Assembly: GCA_050251055.1 (NCBI GenBank)
Contig: JBFWNL010000005.1
Location: 96,001 to 160,000, forward strand
From: Bacteriovoracia bacterium
Lineage (GTDB): Bacteria; Bdellovibrionota; UBA1018; JBFWNL01
Direction of reading: 5' to 3'
Length of the DNA: 64,000 bases
Shown: positions 26,202-35,917 of the stretch, piece after piece
How positions within the stretch are numbered: position 1 is the stretch's first letter
Layout of the letters: each line of letters starts with the position of its first letter
Program-made: the position numbers and the translations under genes
Notes under the pieces: model-generated
What the model was told of the DNA's origin: nothing
What the model saw: the letters and a program-made list of their open reading frames with translations, nothing else
The model's database searches: none

Positions 26202-27149
26202 TTGGGGGGAGTCTTGAAGCAGAATCGTAATTTTTTTTGGGTGAGTTTACTGGGCGTCCTGGTCTTGGGCTCCGTAACGCCGGTGGAAGCGAATGTCTCT
26301 TCCGTGCTGCGCCGGTTGGCCGGCCCGATTGGCCGCTTCTTCGTCCAGGAAACGAGTGAGGGGCAAGCGCTTTTGCGCAGCCTGGGAGCGAGCGACGAAC
26401 GGGCCTTGGCCCTCAAGCTCATGGCTCCGGACGCGAACGAGCTTGCGAATAGCTTGGGCGGACGGTTGAGAACGATCGAGCGGGAACTCTTTTACCGCTC
26501 ATTGTTAGATGACGCATTCGACGCCGAATCAGTCCTGAGAACCTTGATCGCTTCCGAACTCAAGCTCGCGGCCCGCGTGCCGGGCCGGATATCCTTTGTC
26601 ATTTCCGAGACGGAAGAAACTTATCGAGCGACGGTACTCGCCGTGGAGGCCAAGTTGAAGGAAACCAAGCAGGCCTCCTCGTTAGTGGGAAAGGTCCTCG
26701 CGCGATCACAGTCCAAGTTCGTGGGGACTGAGCTGGATCTACGCTTCGGGCATTGGCAGAGCGTGAAGGCGGAGATGAATACGCCGGGATTGCGCGCGGG
26801 GCGCGCGGTATTCGAGGACTGTCAGTTAGTCGAGGCGGTTTGGTTGGACGCGCAGGCCGCCCGGGCCGAGATCGTCGGCGGCACGGTGGAAAACATGATT
26901 GCCGACGGCGCTAATTTCCAAAATTCGATTTGGCGTGGGCAGATTCGCATCGATGGCGCGAGCTTCCGCCACGCGGACTTTCGTGGAGCGGACATGCGCG
27001 GTATGGAGGCCGGAACTCTCTTCGACGCCGGCCGCGCCCACGGGCTGATTGGCCGCGTGGATTTCACGGGCGCGATCTTTGACGAGGCGACGAAGTTGCC
27101 CTTTCCGCGGGAACGGGCACTCGAGCTAGGGATGGTGTTTCTTCGGTAG
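26202..27149 (+). CDS. Secreted protein with C-terminal pentapeptide repeats
   Basis: ASFRHADFRGADMRG; terminal cap GAIFDEATKLPF...ALELGM; N-terminal signal-like segment. Confidence 0.75.
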   Translation: MGGVLKQNRNFFWVSLLGVLVLGSVTPVEANVSSVLRRLAGPIGRFFVQETSEGQALLRSLGASDERALALKLMAPDANELANSLGGRLRTIERELFYRSLLDDAFDAESVLRTLIASELKLAARVPGRISFVISETEETYRATVLAVEAKLKETKQASSLVGKVLARSQSKFVGTELDLRFGHWQSVKAEMNTPGLRAGRAVFEDCQLVEAVWLDAQAARAEIVGGTVENMIADGANFQNSIWRGQIRIDGASFRHADFRGADMRGMEAGTLFDAGRAHGLIGRVDFTGAIFDEATKLPFPRERALELGMVFLR

Positions 27150-28280
27150 CTTCACTACGAAGCACGTCTGGGGACAGGCTTCGTCGATGTAGAGCTGGCC
27201 TCGGTGGCGGAGCACGATCTGCCGGGAGATGCTGAGACCTAGCCCGCTGCCCTGGCCGGGGGGTTTGGTGGTGAACAAGGGTTCGAAGATCCGGTGCCGC
27301 ACATTTTCGGGGACCCCCCTTCCGCCATCAGTTACCTTTATGCTCACGGTATCTGAGCTTGAGACGGATTCGATCCGAATCCACCGTCGATCGGCGGGCA
27401 GCCCCGTTACGGCATCGGTTGCGTTGTTCAGTAAATTCACAATCAGCTGAAAGATCTGTACCCCCGAGCATTCGGCTTCGAAATTTTCCAGCGGGGTTGA
27501 GATTTCGAGGCGTGCGTTCGCGTCCCTTAAACGGTGGGCGCAAAAATCCGCGGCTTCTTGGATGACTCGCGACAAATTGGTCTCTGTCACGACGGCGTTT
27601 TCGCCATCAGCCGAAAGCTTCCGCATTCCCTCCACGATCTCATTCGCCTTGCCGGAAGCGGCGTGAAGCTTCTCGATGACTTCGCGTAGTTTTATCAGAT
27701 CGGGAGGCATCGCCTCTAGGCGGCGCTGCAGCTCTTCCACGCGAAGCTGGATCACCGCCAGGGGATTGCGTACCTCGTGAGCGACGTGCATGGCCGCCTC
27801 GCCCGCGTTGACGAACTTGCCTAGCCGGGAGAGGTTTTTCTCGTGCATCTCAAGCCGTTGCTCTAGGCTGAGCAGTCTTCCGGCGAGCTCCGCCAGCGCG
27901 CATAGTCGTGCGCGCTGCACATCGGAGAGGTGCCGAGGTTCGCGATCCATCACGCAGAGCGTGCCGATCGCTTCCCCTCGTGAGTCGAGCACGGGAATCC
28001 CGGCATAAAAGCGCAGATCTGGATGCTTGCGTAAGATCGGAAAGTCGTAAGCCGCCGTATCTACGGAGATGTCGGGTATTTCGTGTAAGGATCGGGTCGA
28101 AAGAGCCTGCTCGCAAAACGCGCGTCCCCGAGGCTGTTCGTCCATTTCGATAGCGTGGGATGAGTAGGCTTTCCAACCCGTCTCGTCCACGCGGTTCAAC
28201 ATGGCATAGGGGGTCTCGCAAAGCTCGGATGCCAGCGTCACCCAGGTTTTTGCCACTGTATCCACGTCGGGGGAGCTCAT
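27126..28280 (-). CDS. Cytoplasmic GAF-domain sensor histidine kinase
   Basis: GAF (AFCEQAL, LRFYAGIPV, IGTLCVMD); H-box HEVRNPL; NLLNNA, DGGRG, FTTK, GSGLGL. Confidence 0.92.
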   Translation of the reverse strand: MSSPDVDTVAKTWVTLASELCETPYAMLNRVDETGWKAYSSHAIEMDEQPRGRAFCEQALSTRSLHEIPDISVDTAAYDFPILRKHPDLRFYAGIPVLDSRGEAIGTLCVMDREPRHLSDVQRARLCALAELAGRLLSLEQRLEMHEKNLSRLGKFVNAGEAAMHVAHEVRNPLAVIQLRVEELQRRLEAMPPDLIKLREVIEKLHAASGKANEIVEGMRKLSADGENAVVTETNLSRVIQEAADFCAHRLRDANARLEISTPLENFEAECSGVQIFQLIVNLLNNATDAVTGLPADRRWIRIESVSSSDTVSIKVTDGGRGVPENVRHRIFEPLFTTKPPGQGSGLGLSISRQIVLRHRGQLYIDEACPQTCFVVKLPKKHHP

Positions 28281-28363
28281 CGTTCCGAAGCTATACGGAC
28301 AAAATCGGTTTCCTAGAAGTAAAGATCCCTTAACTTGAGTTGGAGTTTCTCATGAATGCCGCG

Positions 28364-28384: not shown

Positions 28385-29098
28385 ATGTGGTTAGCTTTAA
28401 TTAACTTGTCGCCATTCCGGTTTGCCCCGACGATTTCCCCACCTCAAATGACAAACGTAGGGTTTGGGTCTTTCTCATTTTCGCATTCAGTGCTGGGAAT
28501 CCAGTGGGAGAAGCACTTTCCCTGGCCCGCCACGCCGAGCATCGAGGTGCGGCCGGGAAGTTTTCCCCGCTTCATGGATTTTCTCCAGACCCATCAGGCC
28601 AGGCTATTCGCGGATTCAGTTTCCGCGGGGGGATTTCTGTCGGAGCCATTCAGTTCCAATAAGCGCCGGTACTACGAGTTAGCTGGCGACTTTCTCGAGT
28701 TCTTTGCGGACGGCCGACCCGTCGGTTATTTCATTGGCAACGTGCAGGACTGGAATACTTACTACTTGAGGTTCTGCGCGATATTGCCGGAGTACCGTGG
28801 ATCCCCCGCGTACGCGCGATTTTTACGACACCTTTTGGAGATCTTGCCGGTTTATGGCGTGGAAAGAGTGGAAGCCCACGTGTCTCCCGCGAACTTTGTA
28901 AACCTTCACATGCTGACGAAGCTGCAGTTCAACGTCTCTGGACAATGCCTCAGCGAGCGCTGGGGAGCGCTATTGCATTTTACGAAGTTCCTGAGCGCTC
29001 GGCATGAAAACGTCTTCCTGAAGCAGTTCTGTAATAGTGATTGGCCTCAGGTGAGGAATCGTGCTGGTTCCGATGATCTTACGCCGATGAGCGTGTGA
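28385..29098 (+). CDS. GNAT-fold protein, first gene of the candidate RiPP cluster
   Basis: GRPVGYF...YYLRFCAILPEYRG...GVERVEAHVSPAN...LTKLQF follows the GNAT pattern; start uncertain (28385 or 28448). Confidence 0.72.
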   Translation: MWLALINLSPFRFAPTISPPQMTNVGFGSFSFSHSVLGIQWEKHFPWPATPSIEVRPGSFPRFMDFLQTHQARLFADSVSAGGFLSEPFSSNKRRYYELAGDFLEFFADGRPVGYFIGNVQDWNTYYLRFCAILPEYRGSPAYARFLRHLLEILPVYGVERVEAHVSPANFVNLHMLTKLQFNVSGQCLSERWGALLHFTKFLSARHENVFLKQFCNSDWPQVRNRAGSDDLTPMSV

Positions 29099-29113
29099 AA
29101 GGGGGATTGGATC

Positions 29114-29143
29114 ATGAAAAAGTTCGCAAAATGGTGCGCCTAA
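29114..29143 (+). CDS. Putative 9-aa RiPP precursor peptide MKKFAKWCA
   Basis: ATG AAA AAG TTC GCA AAA TGG TGC GCC TAA; GGGGGA Shine-Dalgarno at 29101-29106; between the GNAT and HDO genes; followed by a hairpin; below the ORF-track size cut-off. Confidence 0.62.
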   Translation: MKKFAKWCA

Positions 29144-29159
29144 TTTTCTGAACGAGTGT

Positions 29160-29196
29160 CTCCCTCGCGCCATCCCTCACGGGTGGCTCGGGGGAG
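29160..29196 (+). promoter_or_regulatory. Stable stem-loop after the micro-ORF (mRNA stabiliser or partial terminator)
   Basis: CUCCCUCG-C-GCCAUCC (loop CUCAC) GGGUGGC-U-CGGGGGAG gives 15 bp including 2 G:U; followed by GCTTGAATTTTT. Confidence 0.7.
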
Positions 29197-29220
29197 GCTT
29201 GAATTTTTCCTGGAGGTAAT

Positions 29221-29880
29221 GTGATTTCCGAAGTTATCCGTAAGACAATCGAAGACGAAACGAATAATATCCTGGCGGAAAACCGCCTAGTGGCGAAGGT
29301 GAAGAGCGGCCAGCTGGACCCCCGTGATTTTCGCCTCTATCTATATAATTTAAAATACGCTTTCTCCAATACTCCACCCAATCTCGAGCGGGCGGCTCGC
29401 CTCGCCGCTGAGCGAGGACATTCGTTGGTTTCCGAGTTCATGCTGGAAAAGCTAAGCGAAGAGATCGGACACGATCTATGGCCCGAAGCCGATCTGAAGA
29501 AAACCTCCGACCTGGCGAATCCCGAGGGCGAGAATCTGTACGTTACTCAGGCGACGAAAGACCTCATGGATTATACGGCCGCGGTCGTCACCGAAGATCC
29601 CCGCGTTTATCTTTCCTATCTTACCTTCACCGAATACTTTACGGTGCTGGCCGCCCCGCAGTTCCTGCAGGACATGGAAGACAAGTGCGGTATCGCCAAA
29701 GATAAGGTGAGCGCGATTGCCAATCACGAAGAATCCGACCGCGAGCACTCGAAGGAAGATTTCAAGGTTTTCGATCAGCTGGAGATGGACGATCAGTTGC
29801 GCGAACAGCTCGTGACCGCGGTCAAGCGTTCCGCGCGTTTGGTCGGCAACGCCATGAACGCTTGTGTTCAGGCGTCATGA
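29221..29880 (+). CDS. Heme-oxygenase-like diiron oxidase (HDO; CADD/PqqC-like iron-containing redox enzyme)
   Basis: All-helical 219 aa; EEIGHD, TEY and NHEESDREH (H-x3-D-x2-H) metal-ligand pattern; GGAGG RBS before GTG. Confidence 0.8.
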   Translation: MISEVIRKTIEDETNNILAENRLVAKVKSGQLDPRDFRLYLYNLKYAFSNTPPNLERAARLAAERGHSLVSEFMLEKLSEEIGHDLWPEADLKKTSDLANPEGENLYVTQATKDLMDYTAAVVTEDPRVYLSYLTFTEYFTVLAAPQFLQDMEDKCGIAKDKVSAIANHEESDREHSKEDFKVFDQLEMDDQLREQLVTAVKRSARLVGNAMNACVQAS

Positions 29881-30899
29881 GGCCGGAGTGGCCGGCGTTG
29901 CCGGCGGGGTGCGGGCTGCTCGAGGTCTTTGAGTCCGAGTTCGCCCTTGGCGCCACGAGCTACCGCATGGTGGGCATGAGCGCGCCCTCGAGCCGCCATG
30001 GCGAGGTGGTCGGCAGCGCCGTGGGTACGGGACCGGACACATCCCAGCGCGCATATTTCGAGCTCTGGGAACGTGCGGTCCTGTTCGATGCGGACGCGCG
30101 CGCGCAGGAGGACACGGAGCATCCCGGGTTTCCCGGGTTGGCTTTCGATGGAACGCCGCTGGGCCGGTTGGAGCCGACCGCGGTTTTCCCACGTTCCCCG
30201 AGTCCGGAAACTTGGACTTATGCGCGATCTAGCGGAGTAGCGGCGCATGCTGATCTGACCCGGGCGTGCATGTCCGCGGTTTGGGAGTTGATCGAGCGAG
30301 ATCGCGTCTTGCGTGCTTGGTGGGGGCAGTACGTGCCGCGTCCCCTGAGTGGCGTTCCTGCCGGGGCACTGGAGACCGTGAACGAGCGGTTCGCGGCCCG
30401 ATTTTGGGATTTTGGCTGCGGAGTGGTGGGCGTATTCGGACCCGCGCGTCAGTCGGGCAAGCCATTTCTGATGGGATTTGGCGCCGGCGCTAACGTGGCC
30501 GAGGCTTGCGATCACGCCTTGCGGGATGCGATTCAACGGGTGGCTTTTCTCTGGGATGAGCCCGCCGCGGATCCGAATCCACAGGCGGAGATCGAGTTTC
30601 GGCCCTCCGTCGACTTCCACTTGGAGAGCTTCCTGCTTCCGCGCAGCTTTGATCGCGTGCAGGCGTGGCTTGACGGAAAGCATCTAGGTCGCGTACCGGG
30701 GTTGGTCCCGGCGGCGCCGGAGGCCTACCGGCTGGAGAGCTTCGCTTTCGCGGATATTACCCCGGAGGGGAGCCGATCCCACGGTCGCGTCGTGCGCGCG
30801 ATTTCGCCCGTTCTGATTCCGTTGTGCTTTGGACGCGGAAACGCGCGGGTGGCTCCAGGCGGGATGCCCGAAGGGCTATGGATTCATCCCTTCGCCTGA
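29877..30899 (+). CDS. YcaO-like protein, compact and stand-alone
   Basis: RAYFELWER and SSGVAAH...AVWELIERD ATP-binding motifs; GFGAG; C-terminal IHPFA; ATGA overlap with the HDO stop. Confidence 0.85.
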   Translation: MRPEWPALPAGCGLLEVFESEFALGATSYRMVGMSAPSSRHGEVVGSAVGTGPDTSQRAYFELWERAVLFDADARAQEDTEHPGFPGLAFDGTPLGRLEPTAVFPRSPSPETWTYARSSGVAAHADLTRACMSAVWELIERDRVLRAWWGQYVPRPLSGVPAGALETVNERFAARFWDFGCGVVGVFGPARQSGKPFLMGFGAGANVAEACDHALRDAIQRVAFLWDEPAADPNPQAEIEFRPSVDFHLESFLLPRSFDRVQAWLDGKHLGRVPGLVPAAPEAYRLESFAFADITPEGSRSHGRVVRAISPVLIPLCFGRGNARVAPGGMPEGLWIHPFA

Positions 30900-31565
30900 G
30901 AGGGTGTAGCCGTCGGGCGACTGAAACTGAATTTCGACGTCTAACTGGGATAACTTCTTCCGTAAATTGTACAGATGCACGTCGAGTGTTTTTGCGGAAA
31001 CCGTGACGTTCTTCCAAACTTCATCCTGCATTTCCTTGCGGCGGACGATGCGGCCGCGCGCGCGGTGCAGGAGGGAAAAGATTTGAAGCTCTCGTGCGGT
31101 CAATTGCGCCAAAACGTCATCCCCCTTCTTGAGGGCTAGGGCAGTGGGGTCGAAGGTGAATTTGGAATCCAGGTTTCCGCGGGTAGCGGGAGTGAGAAAG
31201 AACCGCTCGATTTTCACGATTAGCTCTGAGCGCGTAAACGGCTTAGTCAGGTAGTCAATGGCGCCTTCCTTGAAGCAGGTCTGCAGAATTTCGATGTTGT
31301 CGCAGGACGACACTACCAGGAAAGGGATCGAATTGGGCAGCAGGGCTTCTTGCTGGGAAAGGAACTCGAAGAAATGCCCGTCCGGAAGGGTAAGATCGGC
31401 GATGAGCAGATGGGGCGTCTCCGCGGCGTTGGCTTTCAGAGCCTTGAAGTTTTCGCTAAATTCTCGCAGGCATTTAAAGATCCGTATTTCATATTTGCTG
31501 CCTAATATCTCTCGATAGACAAAGAGCGCGTCGGTATCATCCTCTACGATCCAGATCTTTTTCAT
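30876..31565 (-). CDS. OmpR/PhoB-family response regulator
   Basis: VEDD, ADLTLPDG, DYLTKPF; winged helix LTARE...TLDVHLYNLRKKL. Confidence 0.92.
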   Translation of the reverse strand: MKKIWIVEDDTDALFVYREILGSKYEIRIFKCLREFSENFKALKANAAETPHLLIADLTLPDGHFFEFLSQQEALLPNSIPFLVVSSCDNIEILQTCFKEGAIDYLTKPFTRSELIVKIERFFLTPATRGNLDSKFTFDPTALALKKGDDVLAQLTARELQIFSLLHRARGRIVRRKEMQDEVWKNVTVSAKTLDVHLYNLRKKLSQLDVEIQFQSPDGYTLSGEGMNP

Positions 31566-33247
31566 ACGAATTCCTCAAGGCGAGTCGATGTCGTTGGAGT
31601 TTCCACCCTCATCCCCGGCTTTTCGGCCGCAGCGCGGGGCAGGCGTAGGTTGAAGTGACTACCCGGTAGGCCGGTCGGATCCATCGCTTCCAAGGTTCCC
31701 CCCGCGAGCTCCACTAGCCGGCGGGTCAAACGTAATCCTAACCCGATTCGGGCCTGGGAGTTCGTGAGTTGCTCAAAGCGTTCCGGAGTCAAGCCGCTGC
31801 CGTAGTCCCGGATGGAAATCTCGACCGCGTCCGCAGATTCGGCGACGAGGCTAACCTCGATCGTGCACTCGGCCAAGCGGAGAGACGCTCGGTGGCGCAG
31901 AAAATCTTCGATACTGTTGCGATACAAGTTATCCAGGATATGAATTAGGTCAATTTGGGGCATGCTCACCCTGACACTGTGAAGGGCCGGATCCAGCGGG
32001 AAGCGTACCTGCATGAAATCGGATTTTTTGAATTGCAGTGCGAGCAGCGTGACCACATGGTGATGGGCAGTTTCGAAAGATGCGTAGCCCAGATCGTCGC
32101 CCGGGTTCTTGAGGCTAGCCATGAGCGAAGTCAAAAGTTCGGTAGCGCGGTCCATGTTTCCTCGCATCCGCTCTAGATATGCGTCCTTCTTTTCGTGCTC
32201 GGGGTCGGCGATCAGCTCCGCGACGCAGAACTTCGCCGCGTGCAGGGGACCGCTCAAATTGTGGGCGATTAAGGCCGACATTTCGCCGACGGCGAGCATT
32301 CGGCCTTTGTCCGTTTCACGCGATACCATGGTGGAGAGCTCGCGCTCGCTCGTGGCCAACCGCCTTACCAGCTGGTTATACGCGGTCTCGAACTGGGCAA
32401 GCAGAGGCGAAGTATGCATGGCCAAGGTCGGTGGTGGCTGTTTATATCCTACATGGGCGAGTTGCTGAAAGAGGTGCTCTAGTCCACCGACGAAGAATTG
32501 CCGTCGCAGGTACCAGATACGGCAAAACAACGCGATGGCGATGAGTCCGACGGTCCCTACCTCGGTAGCTAGGCGGGCCGGGGTTTCCTCATAGTGAGAA
32601 ACTACAGACACGATCTGTAGGGTCACCATGAAAAAGATGATGAAGGTCATCACCAGGATCTCTTGGCGTTCAAAGTCTTGCCGCCGGTAGGGGATCTTCA
32701 CGCGGCTAAACACCTCGGTGAAGTCGAAGCGCTGGTGCAGCCGAGAAATCTCTTCGGAGAGGAAAATATGGGATTCGATGAAAACGGCGCCGTAAAAGTA
32801 ACAGAAATTAAGCAAATTGATGCAGTAGATTTTAAGGAACTGTTCCCAATTCGAAGCTTCGGGATGCTCCCAAACAAATACTACGACGCATACCGCGGGA
32901 AAAACCTTCAGGACACTTTCAAAATAGAGGAACTTGGCACGGCGGGCGGGAAAGCGAGCGAACGATTCGATGAGGGCGATTCGGCGCTTGCGATCCATTT
33001 TCTCGACGGCTGCGTCTTCGAGGCCATCGAAATAGGTGGCGGCGTCTGGATAGAGTTTTAAGAAGAATTTCCGTTCCAGCTTTCGATTGACCAGGAAGGC
33101 CACCATGTCGACGGCCATGACGAGAAGGAACTCTAAAACCGTTGGCTTCAAGAGGATGAAGACCGCGGGGATGACCGCCAGGGTCATAAACTGCCAGCTT
33201 ATCGGACTAACTAAGTCTGATATCCGTTTTAATTTAAAAACCGACAT
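31562..33247 (-). CDS. Multi-TM sensor histidine kinase, coupled to the response regulator
   Basis: About 6 hydrophobic segments; AHNLSGPL H-box; DNLYRNS; DYGSG; IGLGL with a short ATP lid; 4-bp overlap with the regulator. Confidence 0.87.
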   Translation of the reverse strand: MSVFKLKRISDLVSPISWQFMTLAVIPAVFILLKPTVLEFLLVMAVDMVAFLVNRKLERKFFLKLYPDAATYFDGLEDAAVEKMDRKRRIALIESFARFPARRAKFLYFESVLKVFPAVCVVVFVWEHPEASNWEQFLKIYCINLLNFCYFYGAVFIESHIFLSEEISRLHQRFDFTEVFSRVKIPYRRQDFERQEILVMTFIIFFMVTLQIVSVVSHYEETPARLATEVGTVGLIAIALFCRIWYLRRQFFVGGLEHLFQQLAHVGYKQPPPTLAMHTSPLLAQFETAYNQLVRRLATSERELSTMVSRETDKGRMLAVGEMSALIAHNLSGPLHAAKFCVAELIADPEHEKKDAYLERMRGNMDRATELLTSLMASLKNPGDDLGYASFETAHHHVVTLLALQFKKSDFMQVRFPLDPALHSVRVSMPQIDLIHILDNLYRNSIEDFLRHRASLRLAECTIEVSLVAESADAVEISIRDYGSGLTPERFEQLTNSQARIGLGLRLTRRLVELAGGTLEAMDPTGLPGSHFNLRLPRAAAEKPGMRVETPTTSTRLEEFV

Positions 33248-33313: not shown

Positions 33314-33396
33314 GACTACTTTAATAGTATCAACTAGATAGGTACGGTTAAGATCATTTAAACAGTAGTTCTTGGACGACCTCCTCTCTTTGGTCT

Positions 33397-34575
33397 TTAG
33401 GTGGGGTTGGGTTCGGAGGGACGTTGATTCACCCTCACCTGAAGTTTTTGAATGGCTCCATCGCGGAGTATTTGCAGCTCGGCCGTGTCCCCGCTTTTCC
33501 GGGAGCTGACCAGCAGAACGAGTTCCCGAGCGGAGCGGACGGGGGTGCCGCCAAAGCTCAAGATCATGTCTCTTGGCTGGACGCCGGCTTTCTCGGCCGG
33601 ACTTTTGGGTTCTACCGCAACTACAATAGGTGGGGTCGCGGCCGCGGTGCCGTCCTCAAAGCGGTCCATCATCGCCGGGGAGGGGGCCGCATTGGAGAGC
33701 TGAATGCCGAGGTAGCCGCGGTCCACGCGTCCGTTCACGCGCAGCTGGGCAAGCACTGGACGAATCGCATTGGCGGGAATGGCGAATCCGATTCCTTGAG
33801 CTTGGGCAAGAATCGCGTCGTTGATGCCGATGATCTCGCCTTTGAGGTTGAGGAGCGGTCCACCGGAATTCCCCGGATTAATCGGAGCGTCCGTCTGCAG
33901 GTAATCGCCCAAGATCATGGGCGTGGCCCTTCCTTTGGCGGAAATGATCCCGTGGGAGACCGAATGGCCGTGCCCGAAGGGGTTGCCGACCGCCATGACG
34001 TACTCACCGACGCGTAGCTGGTCCGAATCTCCTAGCTGGAGCGGGGTGATTGCGCGCGAAGTTTTCACTTCAAGGAGGGCAAGATCAAGCTCTGGATCCC
34101 GCCCGATGATTTTTGCCGGCGTCGATTTTTCCCCTCGTTCTTCACTGAACTGAACCTGCACGGACTCGGCGTCCGCGATGACGTGATGGTTGGTTAGGAT
34201 AAGTTTACGGTCTCCTTCGGCCTCCACGACCACGCCACTGCCCAGCGCCCTAGGCATCGCGCCGCCAGGAAACCCGGGAAAGCCGAAATATCGGTCAAGT
34301 GGGCTAGGGGCCCGCAGCTTGGCCGTGGTGGAGATGTTCACCACCGAAGGAACGGCTTTTTCGGCCAGGGCCGCGAAGATATTGGGATCGGTCGCGAGCA
34401 CGGCAGGAGGAGGGGGCGAAACGGGGGACGCCCCGGTGCTGGTGGTGACCGCGGCGCGGCTAGGCGCCCCACCCAGGCCACTCAAACCCCAAAATCCCGC
34501 GATGAACGATCCCCCTGCCAGCAGGGCAAGCGTGACGATAGCGATGGCTGGGATATTCTGGTTCAGGCGTTTCAT
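33397..34575 (-). CDS. HtrA/DegP-family serine protease with a single PDZ domain
   Basis: TNHHV, DLALL and INPGNSGGPL triad motifs; PDZ (GYLGI, SPAEKAG); N-terminal TM. Confidence 0.93.
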   Translation of the reverse strand: MKRLNQNIPAIAIVTLALLAGGSFIAGFWGLSGLGGAPSRAAVTTSTGASPVSPPPPAVLATDPNIFAALAEKAVPSVVNISTTAKLRAPSPLDRYFGFPGFPGGAMPRALGSGVVVEAEGDRKLILTNHHVIADAESVQVQFSEERGEKSTPAKIIGRDPELDLALLEVKTSRAITPLQLGDSDQLRVGEYVMAVGNPFGHGHSVSHGIISAKGRATPMILGDYLQTDAPINPGNSGGPLLNLKGEIIGINDAILAQAQGIGFAIPANAIRPVLAQLRVNGRVDRGYLGIQLSNAAPSPAMMDRFEDGTAAATPPIVVAVEPKSPAEKAGVQPRDMILSFGGTPVRSARELVLLVSSRKSGDTAELQILRDGAIQKLQVRVNQRPSEPNPT

Positions 34576-34648
34576 GGTTCAATCAACCTCCTGGATCCGG
34601 TTTTACCCAGGAAGGCTTAGAGCCACATGAATAAGGGATTAAAAAAAA

Positions 34649-35917
34649 TTAACCTCCGGAGGGGAGGAGAATCACGAAGCGGGTGTTTGGGGATGAGGCA
34701 TCCAGCGACATATTACCGCCGAAGCGGAGCAGCAGGTTGCGGGAGATGCTGAGGCCGAGACCCGTGCCCTTACCCGCTTCTTTCGTGGTGAAGAAAGAGT
34801 CGAATATTTTCGCCTGGAAGTCGGCCGGGATGCCAGGGCCGGAGTCCGTCACGGAAATCTCGATTTGCCCGGCCACGGGTTTGGCTTCGATCTTTACCCA
34901 AGGCGCGGTCGTACCTTGGACGGCGTCGAAGCTGTTGTTAAGGAGGTTGAGGAGAATTTGGCTTAACTCGGTCATGCGCCCCTTCACGCGTAGGGGGCGG
35001 GTCGGGTCCTCGCGAAGCTGGATTTGGAGGCCGATGCCGTGGCGGCGGAAGCGGTCCCGGGAAAAGGAAAGGGTGTTATCCACCCAGTCACGCACGTGGA
35101 TCGTGCTCAACGGATCCTGTGACCCTTCTCGCGAAAAACCGCGAATACCGGCGATAATTTCCGCCGCGCGATCAGTCGCGGCGATTACCTTCTTGAACGT
35201 GTTCCTCACTTTTTCGTTAGCGAGTTCGGTTTCCGGGGGCAACGACTGAAGGATGTCCAGACTGGCCCGGACGATCGTTAGCGGATTATTGATTTCGTGA
35301 CCTATTCCGCTCGCCATCGTTCCCAGGGCCACGAGCTTCGAGCTGCGCGCCATCTCGTCCTGGTGTTTCTGCTGTTGCGTCAAAATCGCGTTCAAAAAGC
35401 GGAACTGTTCCCGAATCACGATCAAGTACCAGATGAGCAGGGGTGTGATGGCGCCCAGGAACATCAACTCCGGAAATCCTTCGGGCTTGGGCGAGAGCAG
35501 GGTCGTTATTACGAGTCCGGCCATCAAGTACACCGCGGCGGCGCTGGCGGCCTTCAAGGAGGTCCCGCCGATGGCGACGAGCACCCCGAACACCATGATG
35601 TAGCAGGCGTGTGAGTAGGCGGGCGCCATTTCATTTCGATAGGCCGAGTAAAAAAAACTCGTGGCCAGGAACAGGATGTTGACCGTGAAAATCCAGGTCA
35701 TTCGTTTCCGAAGGGCTTCCACGTGATAGCTGAGGGCGGTCGTCACGAGAAAAAGTACGGGGATGAAAAGATAATGTAGCAAACCGTCGGTGCCGATCGG
35801 CTGGCCGATCGAGACGAATCCACAAAACATAGGATATAGAAAGGCCGCCGCGATAGACATGACGCGTAGACGGCTAAGCTGGGCGGCCTGCAGGCCTGAA
35901 TCAATCTTGGTAATCAC
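34649..35917 (-). CDS. Membrane sensor histidine kinase (orphan)
   Basis: 5-6 TM segments; HEINNPL, NLLNNS, DSGPGI, FFTTK, GTGLGL. Confidence 0.9.
   Translation of the reverse strand: MITKIDSGLQAAQLSRLRVMSIAAAFLYPMFCGFVSIGQPIGTDGLLHYLFIPVLFLVTTALSYHVEALRKRMTWIFTVNILFLATSFFYSAYRNEMAPAYSHACYIMVFGVLVAIGGTSLKAASAAAVYLMAGLVITTLLSPKPEGFPELMFLGAITPLLIWYLIVIREQFRFLNAILTQQQKHQDEMARSSKLVALGTMASGIGHEINNPLTIVRASLDILQSLPPETELANEKVRNTFKKVIAATDRAAEIIAGIRGFSREGSQDPLSTIHVRDWVDNTLSFSRDRFRRHGIGLQIQLREDPTRPLRVKGRMTELSQILLNLLNNSFDAVQGTTAPWVKIEAKPVAGQIEISVTDSGPGIPADFQAKIFDSFFTTKEAGKGTGLGLSISRNLLLRFGGNMSLDASSPNTRFVILLPSGG

What the first reader, a model, noticed from the sequence alone, without database searches (positions are those of the whole stretch)
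28385..30899. Candidate new minimal RiPP system: GNAT, micro-peptide, heme-oxygenase-like diiron oxidase and YcaO
Seen: four co-directional, tightly packed units of about 2.5 kb in total. They are a GNAT-fold gene, a 9-residue ORF with its own RBS, an HDO with E..H / E / H-x3-D-x2-H ligands, and a YcaO coupled to the HDO by an ATGA overlap. Established: YcaO enzymes activate peptide backbone amides with ATP to give azolines, thioamides or amidines. HDOs (CADD, UndA, BesC, SznF) perform O2-dependent C-C cleavage, decarboxylation or N-oxidation. Inference: the three enzymes mature the micro-peptide into a small modified product. The cluster has no E1/ThiF partner, TfuA, FMN dehydrogenase, RRE, peptidase or transporter, so it matches no YcaO class I know.
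Basis: partly seen in the sequence, partly recalled or inferred. Interest (0 to 1): 0.92.

Follow-up and report, generated by a model that had tools for sequence, protein, structure and literature searches.

The report
Micro-peptide YcaO–diiron oxidase sensor cassette
A nine-residue gene sits between enzymes that probably turn its peptide into a small ring-bearing molecule, next to a membrane sensor and its regulator, and the whole set recurs in relatives of predatory bacteria, so it is a likely new kind of ribosomal natural product or signal.

Summary
The window carries GNAT (28385-29098), a 9-codon ORF MKKFAKWCA with its own RBS (29114-29143), a strong hairpin, a heme-oxygenase-like dimetal oxidase (HDO, 29221-29880) and a YcaO (29877-30899, ATGA overlap).

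The micro-ORF is real. It is present in all 26 related loci examined, as M-[KR]-K-K-[FY]-A-x-x-[Cys/Ser/Thr]-x. A DNA pattern for it found 15 sites in two public collections, and all 15 lie in this cassette.

The HDO call is confirmed by profile, fold and six conserved metal ligands. Natural HDO-YcaO and HDO-GNAT fusions exist.

- GNAT is optional (absent in 4 of 19 genomes).
It is adjacent in 17 of 17 assessable loci.

TfuA and SagB were not found in 5 cassette genomes. No peptidase or transporter is conserved nearby.

Best reading: a minimal RiPP-like module in which a standalone YcaO cyclodehydrates the penultimate Cys/Ser/Thr and the HDO oxidises the product. It is coupled to the sensor pair as regulator or receptor. 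The chemistry and the role are inferred, not shown.

The closest precedent is thiovarsolin (YcaO, TfuA and a heme-oxygenase-like protein). My seven searches of the open-access and bioRxiv library found no description of this cassette.

The parts
28320..28333 (.). Candidate operator: near-palindrome TAAAG-N4-CTTAA (consensus TTAAG-N4-CTTAA), about 59 bp upstream of the GNAT start
   Evidence: A site with at most 1 mismatch lies upstream of the first cassette gene in 11 of 18 loci. Of 22 sites in 301,827 bp, 12 fall in the 5,598 bp of promoter windows. I derived the motif by eye from these same regions, so the enrichment figure is inflated.
28385..29098 (+). GNAT-fold acyltransferase (237 aa), an accessory member of the cassette
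   Evidence: PF00583 E 3.4e-8. A profile of 10 orthologues is closest to YqjY (6.5e-12), RimI (1.1e-6), YpeA, EctA and Naa30/50. Present next to the cassette in 15 of 19 genomes. A natural HDO-GNAT fusion, P0054, exists.
29097..29105 (+). Ribosome-binding site GAAAGGGGG of the micro-ORF
   Evidence: AAAGG(A/G)G stands 5-9 nt before the ATG in the window and the first seven related loci. The other loci have GGAG-type sites. Coordinates.
29114..29143 (+). Micro-ORF MKKFAKWCA (9 codons plus stop): the candidate precursor peptide
   Evidence: Conserved in 26 of 26 loci as M-[KR]-K-K-[FY]-A-x-x-[C/S/T]-x, 9-12 aa. The penultimate residue is Cys in 13, Ser in 10 and Thr in 3. Synonymous codons vary: Ala GCA/GCC/GCG/GCT, Ser AGC/TCA/TCG, Lys AAA/AAG.
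29158..29210 (+). 17-pair hairpin (29158-29198) followed by a T-run (29202-29210): a leaky terminator or attenuator after the micro-ORF
   Evidence: MFE -35.5 kcal/mol, z -3.24 against shuffles. A hairpin of -12 to -31.5 kcal/mol starts 0-14 nt after the stop in 22 of 22 loci computed. The simple terminator scan did not flag it, because the T-run starts too far from the stem.
29221..29880 (+). [quoted passage not shown]
   Evidence: Profile against the PDB: 3dde 1e-24, pABA synthase/CADD 1.3e-8 and 6.8e-6, MboA 8.1e-7, UndA 0.011. AlphaFold model pLDDT 96.8. Foldseek: CADD TM 0.79-0.83, 3dde 0.84. Ligands E81, H84, E138, H169, D173 and H176 are conserved. PF14518 matches 7 of 8 orthologues but not this protein itself.
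29877..30899 (+). Standalone YcaO (340 aa), start overlapping the HDO stop (ATGA)
   Evidence: PF02624 E 8.7e-13. Profile against the PDB: TruD 5.6e-9, MJ1094 3.6e-8, MusD, LynD, McbD. Invariant E62, E65, G120, E137, E140, R141 and a conserved C-terminal H337-P338. Adjacent to the HDO in 19 of 19 genomes. Natural HDO-YcaO fusions P0056 and P0130.
30876..31565 (-). OmpR-type response regulator (229 aa), convergent, its 3' end overlapping the YcaO 3' end by 24 bp
   Evidence: PF00072 and PF00486. An orthologue is adjacent to the cassette in 16 of 16 assessable loci. It lies upstream instead of downstream in two of them.
31562..33247 (-). Histidine kinase (561 aa) with a polytopic N-terminal membrane domain of no known family
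   Evidence: HATPase_c. There are 4-6 hydrophobic segments in the first 250 aa across orthologues. The N-terminal 260 aa have no Pfam match. The sensor domain was found in 11 of 61 relatives: all 9 cassette genomes plus 2 others.
33348..33361 (.). Second operator-like site (TTAAG-N4-TTTAA), about 100 bp upstream of the kinase start
   Evidence: A site in this position was seen in only 2 of 16 loci, so it is weak.

Best explanation
This is a compact RiPP-like module of Bdellovibrionota. Its core is a 9-12-residue ribosomal peptide, a standalone YcaO and a heme-oxygenase-like dimetal oxidase. A GNAT is an optional tailoring or self-protection enzyme. A dedicated two-component pair is encoded convergently.

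Proposed course of events:
1. The operon is transcribed from a promoter carrying a TTAAG-N4-CTTAA site.
2. Most transcripts stop at the hairpin after the micro-ORF, giving an excess of peptide message. Read-through yields the translationally coupled HDO and YcaO.
3. The conserved N-terminal M-K-K-K-F/Y-A acts as a minimal recognition sequence.
4. The YcaO uses ATP to activate the backbone amide preceding the penultimate Cys/Ser/Thr, whose side chain closes an azoline.
5. The HDO uses O2 to oxidise the product. The most economical guess is azoline to azole, replacing the missing FMN dehydrogenase. Oxidative decarboxylation of the last residue is an alternative.
6. Where present, the GNAT acetylates an amine: the N-terminus or a Lys.
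7. The polytopic kinase and OmpR-type regulator either control the operon or sense its product.

Shown: the genes, folds, motifs, conservation and linkage. Inferred: translation of the micro-ORF, every chemical step and the role of the sensor pair.
For: (1) Micro-ORF conservation. It is present in 26 of 26 loci, and the penultimate residue is always Cys, Ser or Thr (13/10/3). The enzymes have diverged to roughly 24-40% identity, yet the first six peptide residues barely change. Codons vary synonymously, including both Ser codon families.

(2) Independent specificity test. A pattern for RBS plus the first six codons, with the last four codons free, hit 8 places in 185,579 species genomes and 7 metagenome contigs. 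All 15 have GNAT and/or HDO/YcaO beside them, and all 15 have Cys/Ser/Thr at position -2.

(3) Linkage of HDO and YcaO. They are adjacent in 19 of 19 genomes, mostly with overlapping stop and start codons. Natural fusions exist: HDO-YcaO (P0056, P0130) and HDO-GNAT (P0054).

(4) YcaO features. The YcaO is closest to azoline-forming TruD/LynD/McbD and to MJ1094, and it keeps the acidic E-x-x-E motifs.

(5) HDO fold and six ligands.

(6) Missing usual partners. TfuA was found in 0 of 5 cassette genomes and the SagB dehydrogenase in 0 of 5. Thioamidation therefore lacks its usual partner, and an azoline would lack its usual oxidant.

(7) Hairpin. One follows the micro-ORF in 22 of 22 loci computed.

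(8) Sensor pair. Regulator and kinase are adjacent in 16 of 16 assessable loci, and in G039 the kinase lies on the same contig. The sensor domain occurs in all 9 cassette genomes among 61 relatives. None of the 50 genomes lacking the sensor domain has the cassette.

(9) Precedent. A heme-oxygenase-like protein acts as a dehydrogenase in a YcaO pathway: VarO in thiovarsolin (PMC6511847, passages read).
Against: - There is no expression or product evidence of any kind.
- From recall, most azoline-forming YcaOs need an E1-like/RRE partner. None is among the conserved neighbours.
- From recall, the peptide is shorter than any YcaO substrate I know.
- The NCBIfam SagD model scores far below its cut-off: 48.8 against 219.25 bits.
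- The window's own HDO does not reach Pfam PF14518.
- The HDO's role is a guess. Its nearest solved relatives (CADD, 3dde, MboA) do unrelated chemistry.
- No exporter or peptidase is conserved nearby, which fits a secreted signal or antibiotic poorly.
- Two relatives (G034, G042) have the kinase and regulator without this cassette.
- The operator-like site was found in only 11 of 18 loci, and I derived it from the same sequences.
- The YcaO tree is unresolved (1 of 14 inner branches supported), so nothing can be said about co-evolution of enzyme and nucleophile.
Confidence: 0.7

Rival explanations
1. The micro-ORF is only a regulatory leader peptide. Its translation, ending 0-14 nt before the terminator hairpin, sets read-through into HDO and YcaO. 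The enzymes act on some other substrate: a protein, as E. coli YcaO is thought to (recalled), or a small molecule.
For: A strong hairpin with a T-run follows the micro-ORF so closely that a terminating ribosome would cover its 5' arm, in 22 of 22 loci computed. The peptide is very short, and no leader-binding RRE/E1 protein is present.
Against: An attenuator does not explain why the penultimate residue is always one of the three YcaO nucleophiles, encoded by unrelated codons: TGY, AGY, TCN and ACN in 26 of 26 loci. It also does not explain why the neighbouring enzyme belongs to a family that modifies peptide backbones. The two roles are not exclusive.
Confidence: 0.1
2. It is a RiPP, but with other chemistry. 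The YcaO would make a thioamide or an amidine, for example by attack of the N-terminal amine or a Lys side chain. The HDO would act on Lys, Phe/Tyr or the C-terminal residue by N-oxygenation, C-C cleavage or decarboxylation, rather than oxidising an azoline.
For: The YcaO profile scores almost as well against the thioamide-linked MJ1094 (3.6e-8) as against TruD (5.6e-9). Lys-Lys-Lys and Phe/Tyr are the most conserved residues of the peptide. Known HDOs act on Lys, Arg, Trp and carboxylates (abstracts listed). From recall, standalone amidine-forming YcaOs exist in the bottromycin, klebsazolicin and streptamidine pathways. For streptamidine I read passages of PMC8442711.
Against: TfuA was not found in 5 of 5 cassette genomes. 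Strict Cys/Ser/Thr conservation with free interchange among the three points to a side-chain nucleophile. In the one well-supported YcaO clade, Ser and Thr stand side by side.
Confidence: 0.2
3. The product is an antimicrobial, a predation factor or a metal-binding peptide. The two-component pair merely regulates its production in response to an outside cue, rather than sensing the peptide itself.
For: From recall, many RiPP antibiotic clusters carry a two-component system. The operator-like site sits in front of the cassette in 11 of 18 loci but in front of the kinase operon in only 2 of 16, so a positive feedback loop is not general. G034 and G042 keep the kinase and regulator without the cassette.
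Against: No immunity gene, transporter or peptidase is conserved beside the cassette. The kinase has a polytopic membrane domain without a large outside loop, the build of the peptide-sensing kinases I recall (AgrC type).
Confidence: 0.3

Closest known systems
Thiovarsolin cluster of Streptomyces varsoviensis (VarA precursor, VarY YcaO, VarT TfuA, VarO heme-oxygenase-like protein); PMC6511847, passages read
   Same: It is the only YcaO pathway in print that I found with a heme-oxygenase-like protein. VarO behaves as a dehydrogenase. The products are very small peptides that end up N-acetylated.
   Different: Thiovarsolin needs TfuA and makes a thioamide. Its precursor is long and repetitive, its acetylation is ascribed to a host enzyme, and it comes from an actinomycete. 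Here TfuA was not found, the precursor is a single 9-12-mer, a GNAT is usually encoded in the cassette, and a sensor pair is attached. I did not test whether VarO and this HDO are orthologues, because I held no VarO sequence.
Linear azol(in)e peptides and cyanobactins (McbBCD of microcin B17; TruD, LynD, MusD heterocyclases)
   Same: These are the best solved matches of the YcaO profile. They share the Cys/Ser/Thr nucleophile logic.
   Different: From recall, those enzymes carry or partner with an E1-like/RRE domain, use long leader peptides and use an FMN dehydrogenase. Here there is no partner among the conserved neighbours, no SagB in 5 genomes and a six-residue constant part instead of a leader.
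Standalone YcaOs of bottromycin and streptamidine pathways (bottromycin recalled; PMC8442711, passages read)
   Same: The YcaO works without an E1-like partner on a precursor that lacks a classical N-terminal leader.
   Different: Those precursors are several times longer and their clusters hold hydrolases, P450 or other dehydrogenases and transporters. There is no HDO and no attached sensor pair. They are actinobacterial.
Microcin C (7-residue MccA; GNAT domain of MccE for self-protection), recalled, not tested
   Same: It has a precursor gene of fewer than 10 codons, and a GNAT that may detoxify the product.
   Different: Maturation there is by an E1-like adenylating enzyme, not by a YcaO or an HDO.
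agr-type peptide signalling (AgrD, AgrB, AgrC, AgrA); abstracts listed, otherwise recalled
   Same: A short ribosomal peptide, its maturation enzyme(s), a polytopic histidine kinase and a response regulator are encoded together without a dedicated ABC exporter.
   Different: There is no AgrB-like peptidase. The regulator is OmpR-type, not LytTR. The organism is Gram-negative, the gene layout is convergent, and sensing of the peptide is not shown.
HDO enzymes CADD/pABA synthase and the uncharacterised Sden_3740 (PDB 3dde)
   Same: They share the seven-helix fold (TM 0.79-0.84) and all six metal ligands aligned.
   Different: Sequence identity is about 15%. CADD consumes its own residues, and no peptide substrate is known for either.

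Membership tests
YcaO superfamily (PF02624) | Match to the YcaO model above the curated cut-off | tested here: met
   48.7 bits against 25.7. Also found by the family search in the genome.
YcaO superfamily (PF02624) | Conserved acidic ATP/Mg-binding motifs (the role of these residues is recalled) | tested here: met
   E62, E65, E137, E140 and R141 are invariant in 24 sequences. S-N-G..E-L-x-E-R-D aligns with TruD.
Azoline-forming cyclodehydratase systems (TOMM / LAP / cyanobactin) | E1-like / Ocin-ThiF / RRE partner, fused or adjacent | tested here: not met
   Only five families are shared by the neighbourhoods of 18 loci: HDO, YcaO, kinase, regulator and GNAT. The YcaO is 300-367 aa with no extra domain. 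I ran no direct HMM search for E1-like proteins.
Azoline-forming cyclodehydratase systems (TOMM / LAP / cyanobactin) | Cys, Ser or Thr in the core peptide | tested here: met
   The penultimate residue is Cys, Ser or Thr in 26 of 26 peptides.
Azoline-forming cyclodehydratase systems (TOMM / LAP / cyanobactin) | SagB-type FMN dehydrogenase | tested here: not met
   TIGR03605 found in 0 of 5 cassette genomes, 90-96% complete.
Azoline-forming cyclodehydratase systems (TOMM / LAP / cyanobactin) | Match to the SagD-type model above its cut-off | tested here: not met
   TIGR03604 scores 48.8 bits against a cut-off of 219.25.
Thioamide-forming YcaO-TfuA systems (including thiovarsolin) | TfuA partner | tested here: not met
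   PF07812 found in 0 of 5 cassette genomes. The control rang in Methanosarcina.
Thioamide-forming YcaO-TfuA systems (including thiovarsolin) | Heme-oxygenase-like protein orthologous to VarO | not tested
   A heme-oxygenase-like protein is present, but I held no VarO sequence to compare.
Heme-oxygenase-like dimetal oxidases/oxygenases (HDO) | Seven-helix heme-oxygenase-like fold | tested here: met
   Model pLDDT 96.8. Foldseek: CADD TM 0.79-0.83, 3dde 0.84, then heme oxygenases, TenA and UndA.
Heme-oxygenase-like dimetal oxidases/oxygenases (HDO) | Six carboxylate/histidine metal ligands (E, H, E, H, D, H) | tested here: met
   E81, H84, E138, H169, D173 and H176 are conserved. They align with the corresponding motifs of 3dde and of pABA synthase 9pj4.
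Heme-oxygenase-like dimetal oxidases/oxygenases (HDO) | Pfam PF14518 (Haem_oxygenas_2) | tested here: inconclusive
   The window protein has no match at E up to 1. Seven of the 8 cassette HDOs scanned match, best E 8.3e-10.
Heme-oxygenase-like dimetal oxidases/oxygenases (HDO) | Binds two metal ions and activates O2 | not testable with these tools
   Needs purified protein.
GNAT acyltransferases | Match to PF00583 above the cut-off | tested here: met
   34.2 bits against 20.7.
GNAT acyltransferases | Acyl-CoA-binding loop (R/Q-x-x-G-x-G/A, recalled) | tested here: inconclusive
   Most orthologues have R/Q-G-x-G, but the window has R-G-S-P-A.
RiPP pathway | Gene for a precursor peptide beside the modifying enzymes | tested here: met
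   26 of 26 loci.
RiPP pathway | A post-translationally modified product | not testable with these tools
   No mass spectrometry. No RNA run is listed for this DNA.
agr-like peptide signalling | Precursor, histidine kinase and response regulator encoded together | tested here: met
   16 of 16 assessable loci, plus G039.
agr-like peptide signalling | AgrB-type peptidase and LytTR-type regulator | tested here: not met
   The regulator has a Trans_reg_C (OmpR-type) domain. No peptidase is conserved.

The most novel reading that the evidence does not exclude
This would be a peptide autoinducer circuit of a Gram-negative predatory lineage. A 9-12-residue ribosomal peptide is released without any leader removal. 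A partner-less YcaO and a dimetal oxidase, used in place of a flavin dehydrogenase, convert it to a C-terminal azole or a new oxidised heterocycle. The dedicated polytopic histidine kinase then senses it in or at the membrane, and its OmpR-type regulator binds the TTAAG-N4-CTTAA site in front of the operon. If so, it would be at once a new RiPP class with a precursor of about ten residues, a new reaction for HDO enzymes on peptides, and a new kind of cell-cell or cell-autonomous signal in Bdellovibrionota.
Probability: 0.3. Interest if true: 0.92.

Novelty: new variant of a known kind. Interest (0 to 1): 0.8.

Why it matters
YcaO enzymes are a main route to backbone-modified peptides, and HDOs are a fast-growing family of oxidants that so far act almost only on free amino acids and fatty acids. 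A conserved pairing of the two on a peptide of about ten residues would give several things:
- a partner-less YcaO with what may be the shortest recognition sequence known;
- a first well-defined peptide substrate for an HDO;
- a system small enough to be reconstituted with a synthetic peptide and two proteins.

The fixed link to a membrane kinase and its regulator suggests peptide signalling in Bdellovibrionota, for which I know of no described peptide signalling system. The case also shows that genes of 9-12 codons, which gene callers and RiPP miners skip, can be recovered by comparative genomics.

Tried and rejected
- Single-sequence AlphaFold of the HDO gave a useless model (pLDDT 39.5). 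I repeated it with a 145-row alignment.
I used a DNA pattern instead.
- The simple terminator scan did not list the hairpin after the micro-ORF. Folding did show it.
- Complex prediction of YcaO with HDO returned 'no answer'. It says nothing either way.
- The look-up of sequencing runs listed no RNA holder. Two coded DNA runs hold the stretch and may be its source.
- The kinase N-terminal domain has no Pfam match. The Atlas gave only leads: unnamed clusters at 0.91-0.95 and MASE10 at 0.85-0.89.
- The search for homologous proteins found only 8 YcaO relatives.
- The YcaO tree of 17 rows is unresolved: 1 of 14 inner branches is supported and there are several long branches. The Cys/Ser/Thr label needs 6 changes against a shuffled mean of 7.6. 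I draw only the weak point that the nucleophile is not clade-bound. Rows left out: G251 (truncated YcaO), G039 and the P0152-P0158 proteins.
- The motif regex missed three loci (L027, L029, L032), so their hairpins were not computed.
- The hairpin picker sometimes merged a second small stem. Its count of T-rich tails (14 of 22 with at least 4 T in 10 nt) is therefore rough.
- A positive-feedback site in front of the kinase operon was seen in only 2 of 16 loci, so I dropped it as a general feature.
- Literature: seven searches found no paper on this cassette. In one search, none of the 20 listed papers held the word YcaO. The library covers open-access PMC and bioRxiv only, and supplements were closed. 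Neighbourhood tables of HDO or YcaO surveys that sit in supplements could mention it.
- I considered and rejected a degenerate signal-peptide remnant, although the peptides resemble the start of one. The stop codon position is kept in 26 loci.

Full report
**What is there.** On the + strand the window carries the following features.
- A GNAT gene at 28385-29098 (PF00583).
- A nine-codon ORF at 29114-29143, reading MKKFAKWCA, preceded by GAAAGGGGG.
- A 17-pair hairpin at 29158-29198, followed by a T-run. Its MFE is -35.5 kcal/mol, z -3.24.
- A 219-residue helical protein at 29221-29880, with a GTG start behind GGAGG.
- A 340-residue YcaO at 29877-30899 (PF02624). Its ATG overlaps the preceding stop as ATGA.

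**The middle protein is an HDO.**
- Pfam and NCBIfam gave nothing for it.
- A profile of 11 homologues matched the heme-oxygenase-like structure 3dde (1e-24), the self-sacrificing pABA synthases of the CADD type (1.3e-8, 6.8e-6, 2.2e-5), MboA (8.1e-7), UndA (0.011) and BesC (0.21).
- A single-sequence fold failed.
- With 145 homologues from a search of 1.84 billion representatives, the model reached pLDDT 96.8. That search gave 2502 hits at E up to 1e-3 and 358 at E up to 1e-30.
- The best Foldseek matches in the PDB were CADD (TM 0.79-0.83) and 3dde (0.84).
- E81, H84, E138, H169, D173 and H176 are invariant or nearly so. They align with the ligand motifs of 3dde and of a pABA synthase.
- Seven of the 8 cassette HDOs scanned do match Pfam PF14518.

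**The cassette is conserved.**
- Among 60 relatives of the same order, 8 further genomes have a close HDO homologue with a YcaO beside it.
- In an even sample of 401 genomes of the phylum, 18 genomes from at least 11 families have one. Every such HDO (E up to 3e-35) is followed by a YcaO. Weaker HDO hits are paralogues without a YcaO.
- HDO and YcaO mostly overlap.
- GNAT precedes them in 15 of 19 genomes. The four genomes without it have no close orthologue elsewhere.
- Public protein sets hold natural fusions: HDO-YcaO (P0056 at 559 aa, and P0130) and HDO-GNAT (P0054).
- Record titles of the matching contigs name Bdellovibrionales, Bdellovibrionota and Oligoflexia MAGs.

**The micro-ORF is real.**
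- In every one of the 19 genomes, a 9-12-codon ORF with a strong RBS lies just upstream of the HDO. This includes the four genomes without GNAT.
- Examples: MKKFAKWCA, MKKKFAQHCL, MKKKFAQISF, MKKKFALVSV, MKKKYAKICT, MRKKYAHASM, MKNKKKYAQFCF, MKKKFAKYTL, MKKYALLTF, MKKYGFVTV, MKKLFATVCL.
- I then wrote a DNA pattern for the RBS and the first six codons, leaving the last four codons free, and scanned two collections. It matched 8 places in 185,579 species genomes and 7 metagenome contigs. All 15 lie next to GNAT and/or HDO/YcaO genes.
- Over the 26 distinct loci, the penultimate residue is Cys 13 times, Ser 10 times and Thr 3 times. The last residue is small or hydrophobic.
- Synonymous codons vary freely, including both Ser codon families.
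- The enzymes share only about 24-40% identity, so the peptide is under stronger constraint than its enzymes.
- A hairpin follows the stop within 0-14 nt in 22 of 22 loci computed, with different sequences.

- Clustering the neighbours of 18 loci (up to about 9 kb of DNA on each side) gave only five shared families: HDO, YcaO, GNAT, an OmpR-type response regulator, and a histidine kinase of 530-600 aa with 4-6 N-terminal membrane segments.
- Regulator and kinase are adjacent in all 16 loci where the DNA is available. They are usually convergent, with the 3' ends of YcaO and regulator overlapping (24 bp in the window). G039 has the kinase on the same short contig.
- The kinase's sensor domain alone was found in 11 of 61 relatives: all 9 cassette genomes plus G034 and G042. 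None of the 50 genomes without it has the cassette.
- G034 carries a variant. The orthologous kinase and regulator lie beside a GNAT and a divergent YcaO-like gene, without HDO or a micro-ORF of this type. G042 has no cassette nearby.
- A near-palindrome, TTAAG-N4-CTTAA, lies upstream of the first cassette gene in 11 of 18 loci. This motif came from inspecting those same regions.

**What is absent.**
- TfuA and the SagB dehydrogenase were not found in five cassette genomes that are 90-96% complete.
- No peptidase, transporter or E1-like gene is conserved nearby.

**Mechanism.** The YcaO profile is closest to the azoline-forming TruD, MusD, LynD and McbD, and to MJ1094. It keeps the paired acidic motifs and a conserved C-terminal His-Pro. 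An invariant Cys/Ser/Thr one residue from the C-terminus is what a cyclodehydratase substrate would look like. I therefore propose ATP-dependent azoline formation at that residue. The constant M-K-K-K-F/Y-A would serve as the recognition element.

The HDO step is the least certain. With no flavin dehydrogenase found in the five cassette genomes searched, oxidation of azoline to azole is the simplest role. VarO of the thiovarsolin pathway is a precedent for a heme-oxygenase-like dehydrogenase beside a YcaO (PMC6511847, passages read). Oxidative decarboxylation of the last residue, or chemistry on Lys or Phe/Tyr, cannot be excluded.

The GNAT resembles RimI and N-alpha-acetyltransferases. It is optional, so I read it as tailoring or self-protection.

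The sensor pair may regulate the operon or sense its product. The polytopic kinase and the lack of an exporter recall agr-type circuits, but nothing here shows sensing.

**Comparison with the known.** The cassette belongs to the YcaO, HDO and GNAT superfamilies. It fails defining features of TOMM/LAP systems (no partner, no SagB, SagD model far below its cut-off) and of YcaO-TfuA systems (no TfuA).

Seven literature searches found no description of it. A 2026 HDO review cites only the thiovarsolin paper for RiPPs (PMC13108848, term search of the text). The survey of standalone YcaOs that I read in part covers Actinobacteria only (PMC8442711). Public records call the orthologues 'hypothetical protein' or 'PqqC'.

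The library is limited to open-access papers and bioRxiv preprints, and supplements were closed.

**Verdict.** The feature is real, conserved and so far undescribed. I rate it a new variant of YcaO-dependent RiPP biosynthesis, with an unusually small precursor, an HDO partner and an attached two-component system. Product, chemistry and biological role remain to be shown.

Noticed in passing
L076 7690-8754 (G000 contig C5, about 110 kb beyond the window): A second YcaO gene in the same genome (PF02624, E 3.1e-11). It sits next to a 496-aa ORF that looks secreted, a 479-aa histidine kinase and a 451-aa response regulator. This may be another YcaO-plus-sensor module of a different type.
   Followed up: partly
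L074 2900-9150 (G034): The closest orthologues of the window's kinase (43% identity) and regulator (51%) lie beside a GNAT and a divergent 329-aa YcaO-like gene ending in LLHPFD, which are convergent. A 735-aa hybrid kinase lies between them and the kinase-regulator pair. There is no HDO and no micro-ORF of the MKKKFA type. It looks like a rearranged or alternative version of the module.
   Followed up: partly
L077 5270-6695 (G000 contig C9); L010 1411-2922: HDO paralogues occur without a YcaO. In the window's genome one follows a 227-aa ORF. In G006 two stand in tandem. A 480-aa tandem-HDO protein (P0003) is in the protein library.
   Followed up: no
window 30876-30899: The convergent YcaO and response-regulator genes overlap by 24 bp at their 3' ends. 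A similar overlap is seen in other loci, for example L050. Transcription of one may interfere with the other.
   Followed up: no
window 26202-28280 and 33397-35917: Flanking genes are not conserved with the cassette: a pentapeptide-repeat protein (26202-27149), a GAF histidine kinase (27126-28280, minus strand), an HtrA-type serine protease with a PDZ domain (33397-34575, minus strand) and a further histidine kinase (34649-35917, minus strand).
   Followed up: partly
L003 / L017 (G039): The GNAT of this locus is cut by the contig end and its two matching pieces lie in different frames. This is either a frameshift or an assembly error.
   Followed up: no
all micro-ORFs: The peptides (Lys-rich start, then hydrophobic residues) look like the first ten residues of a bacterial signal peptide. 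Such a cationic-hydrophobic peptide could partition into the inner membrane, where the polytopic kinase sits.
   Followed up: no
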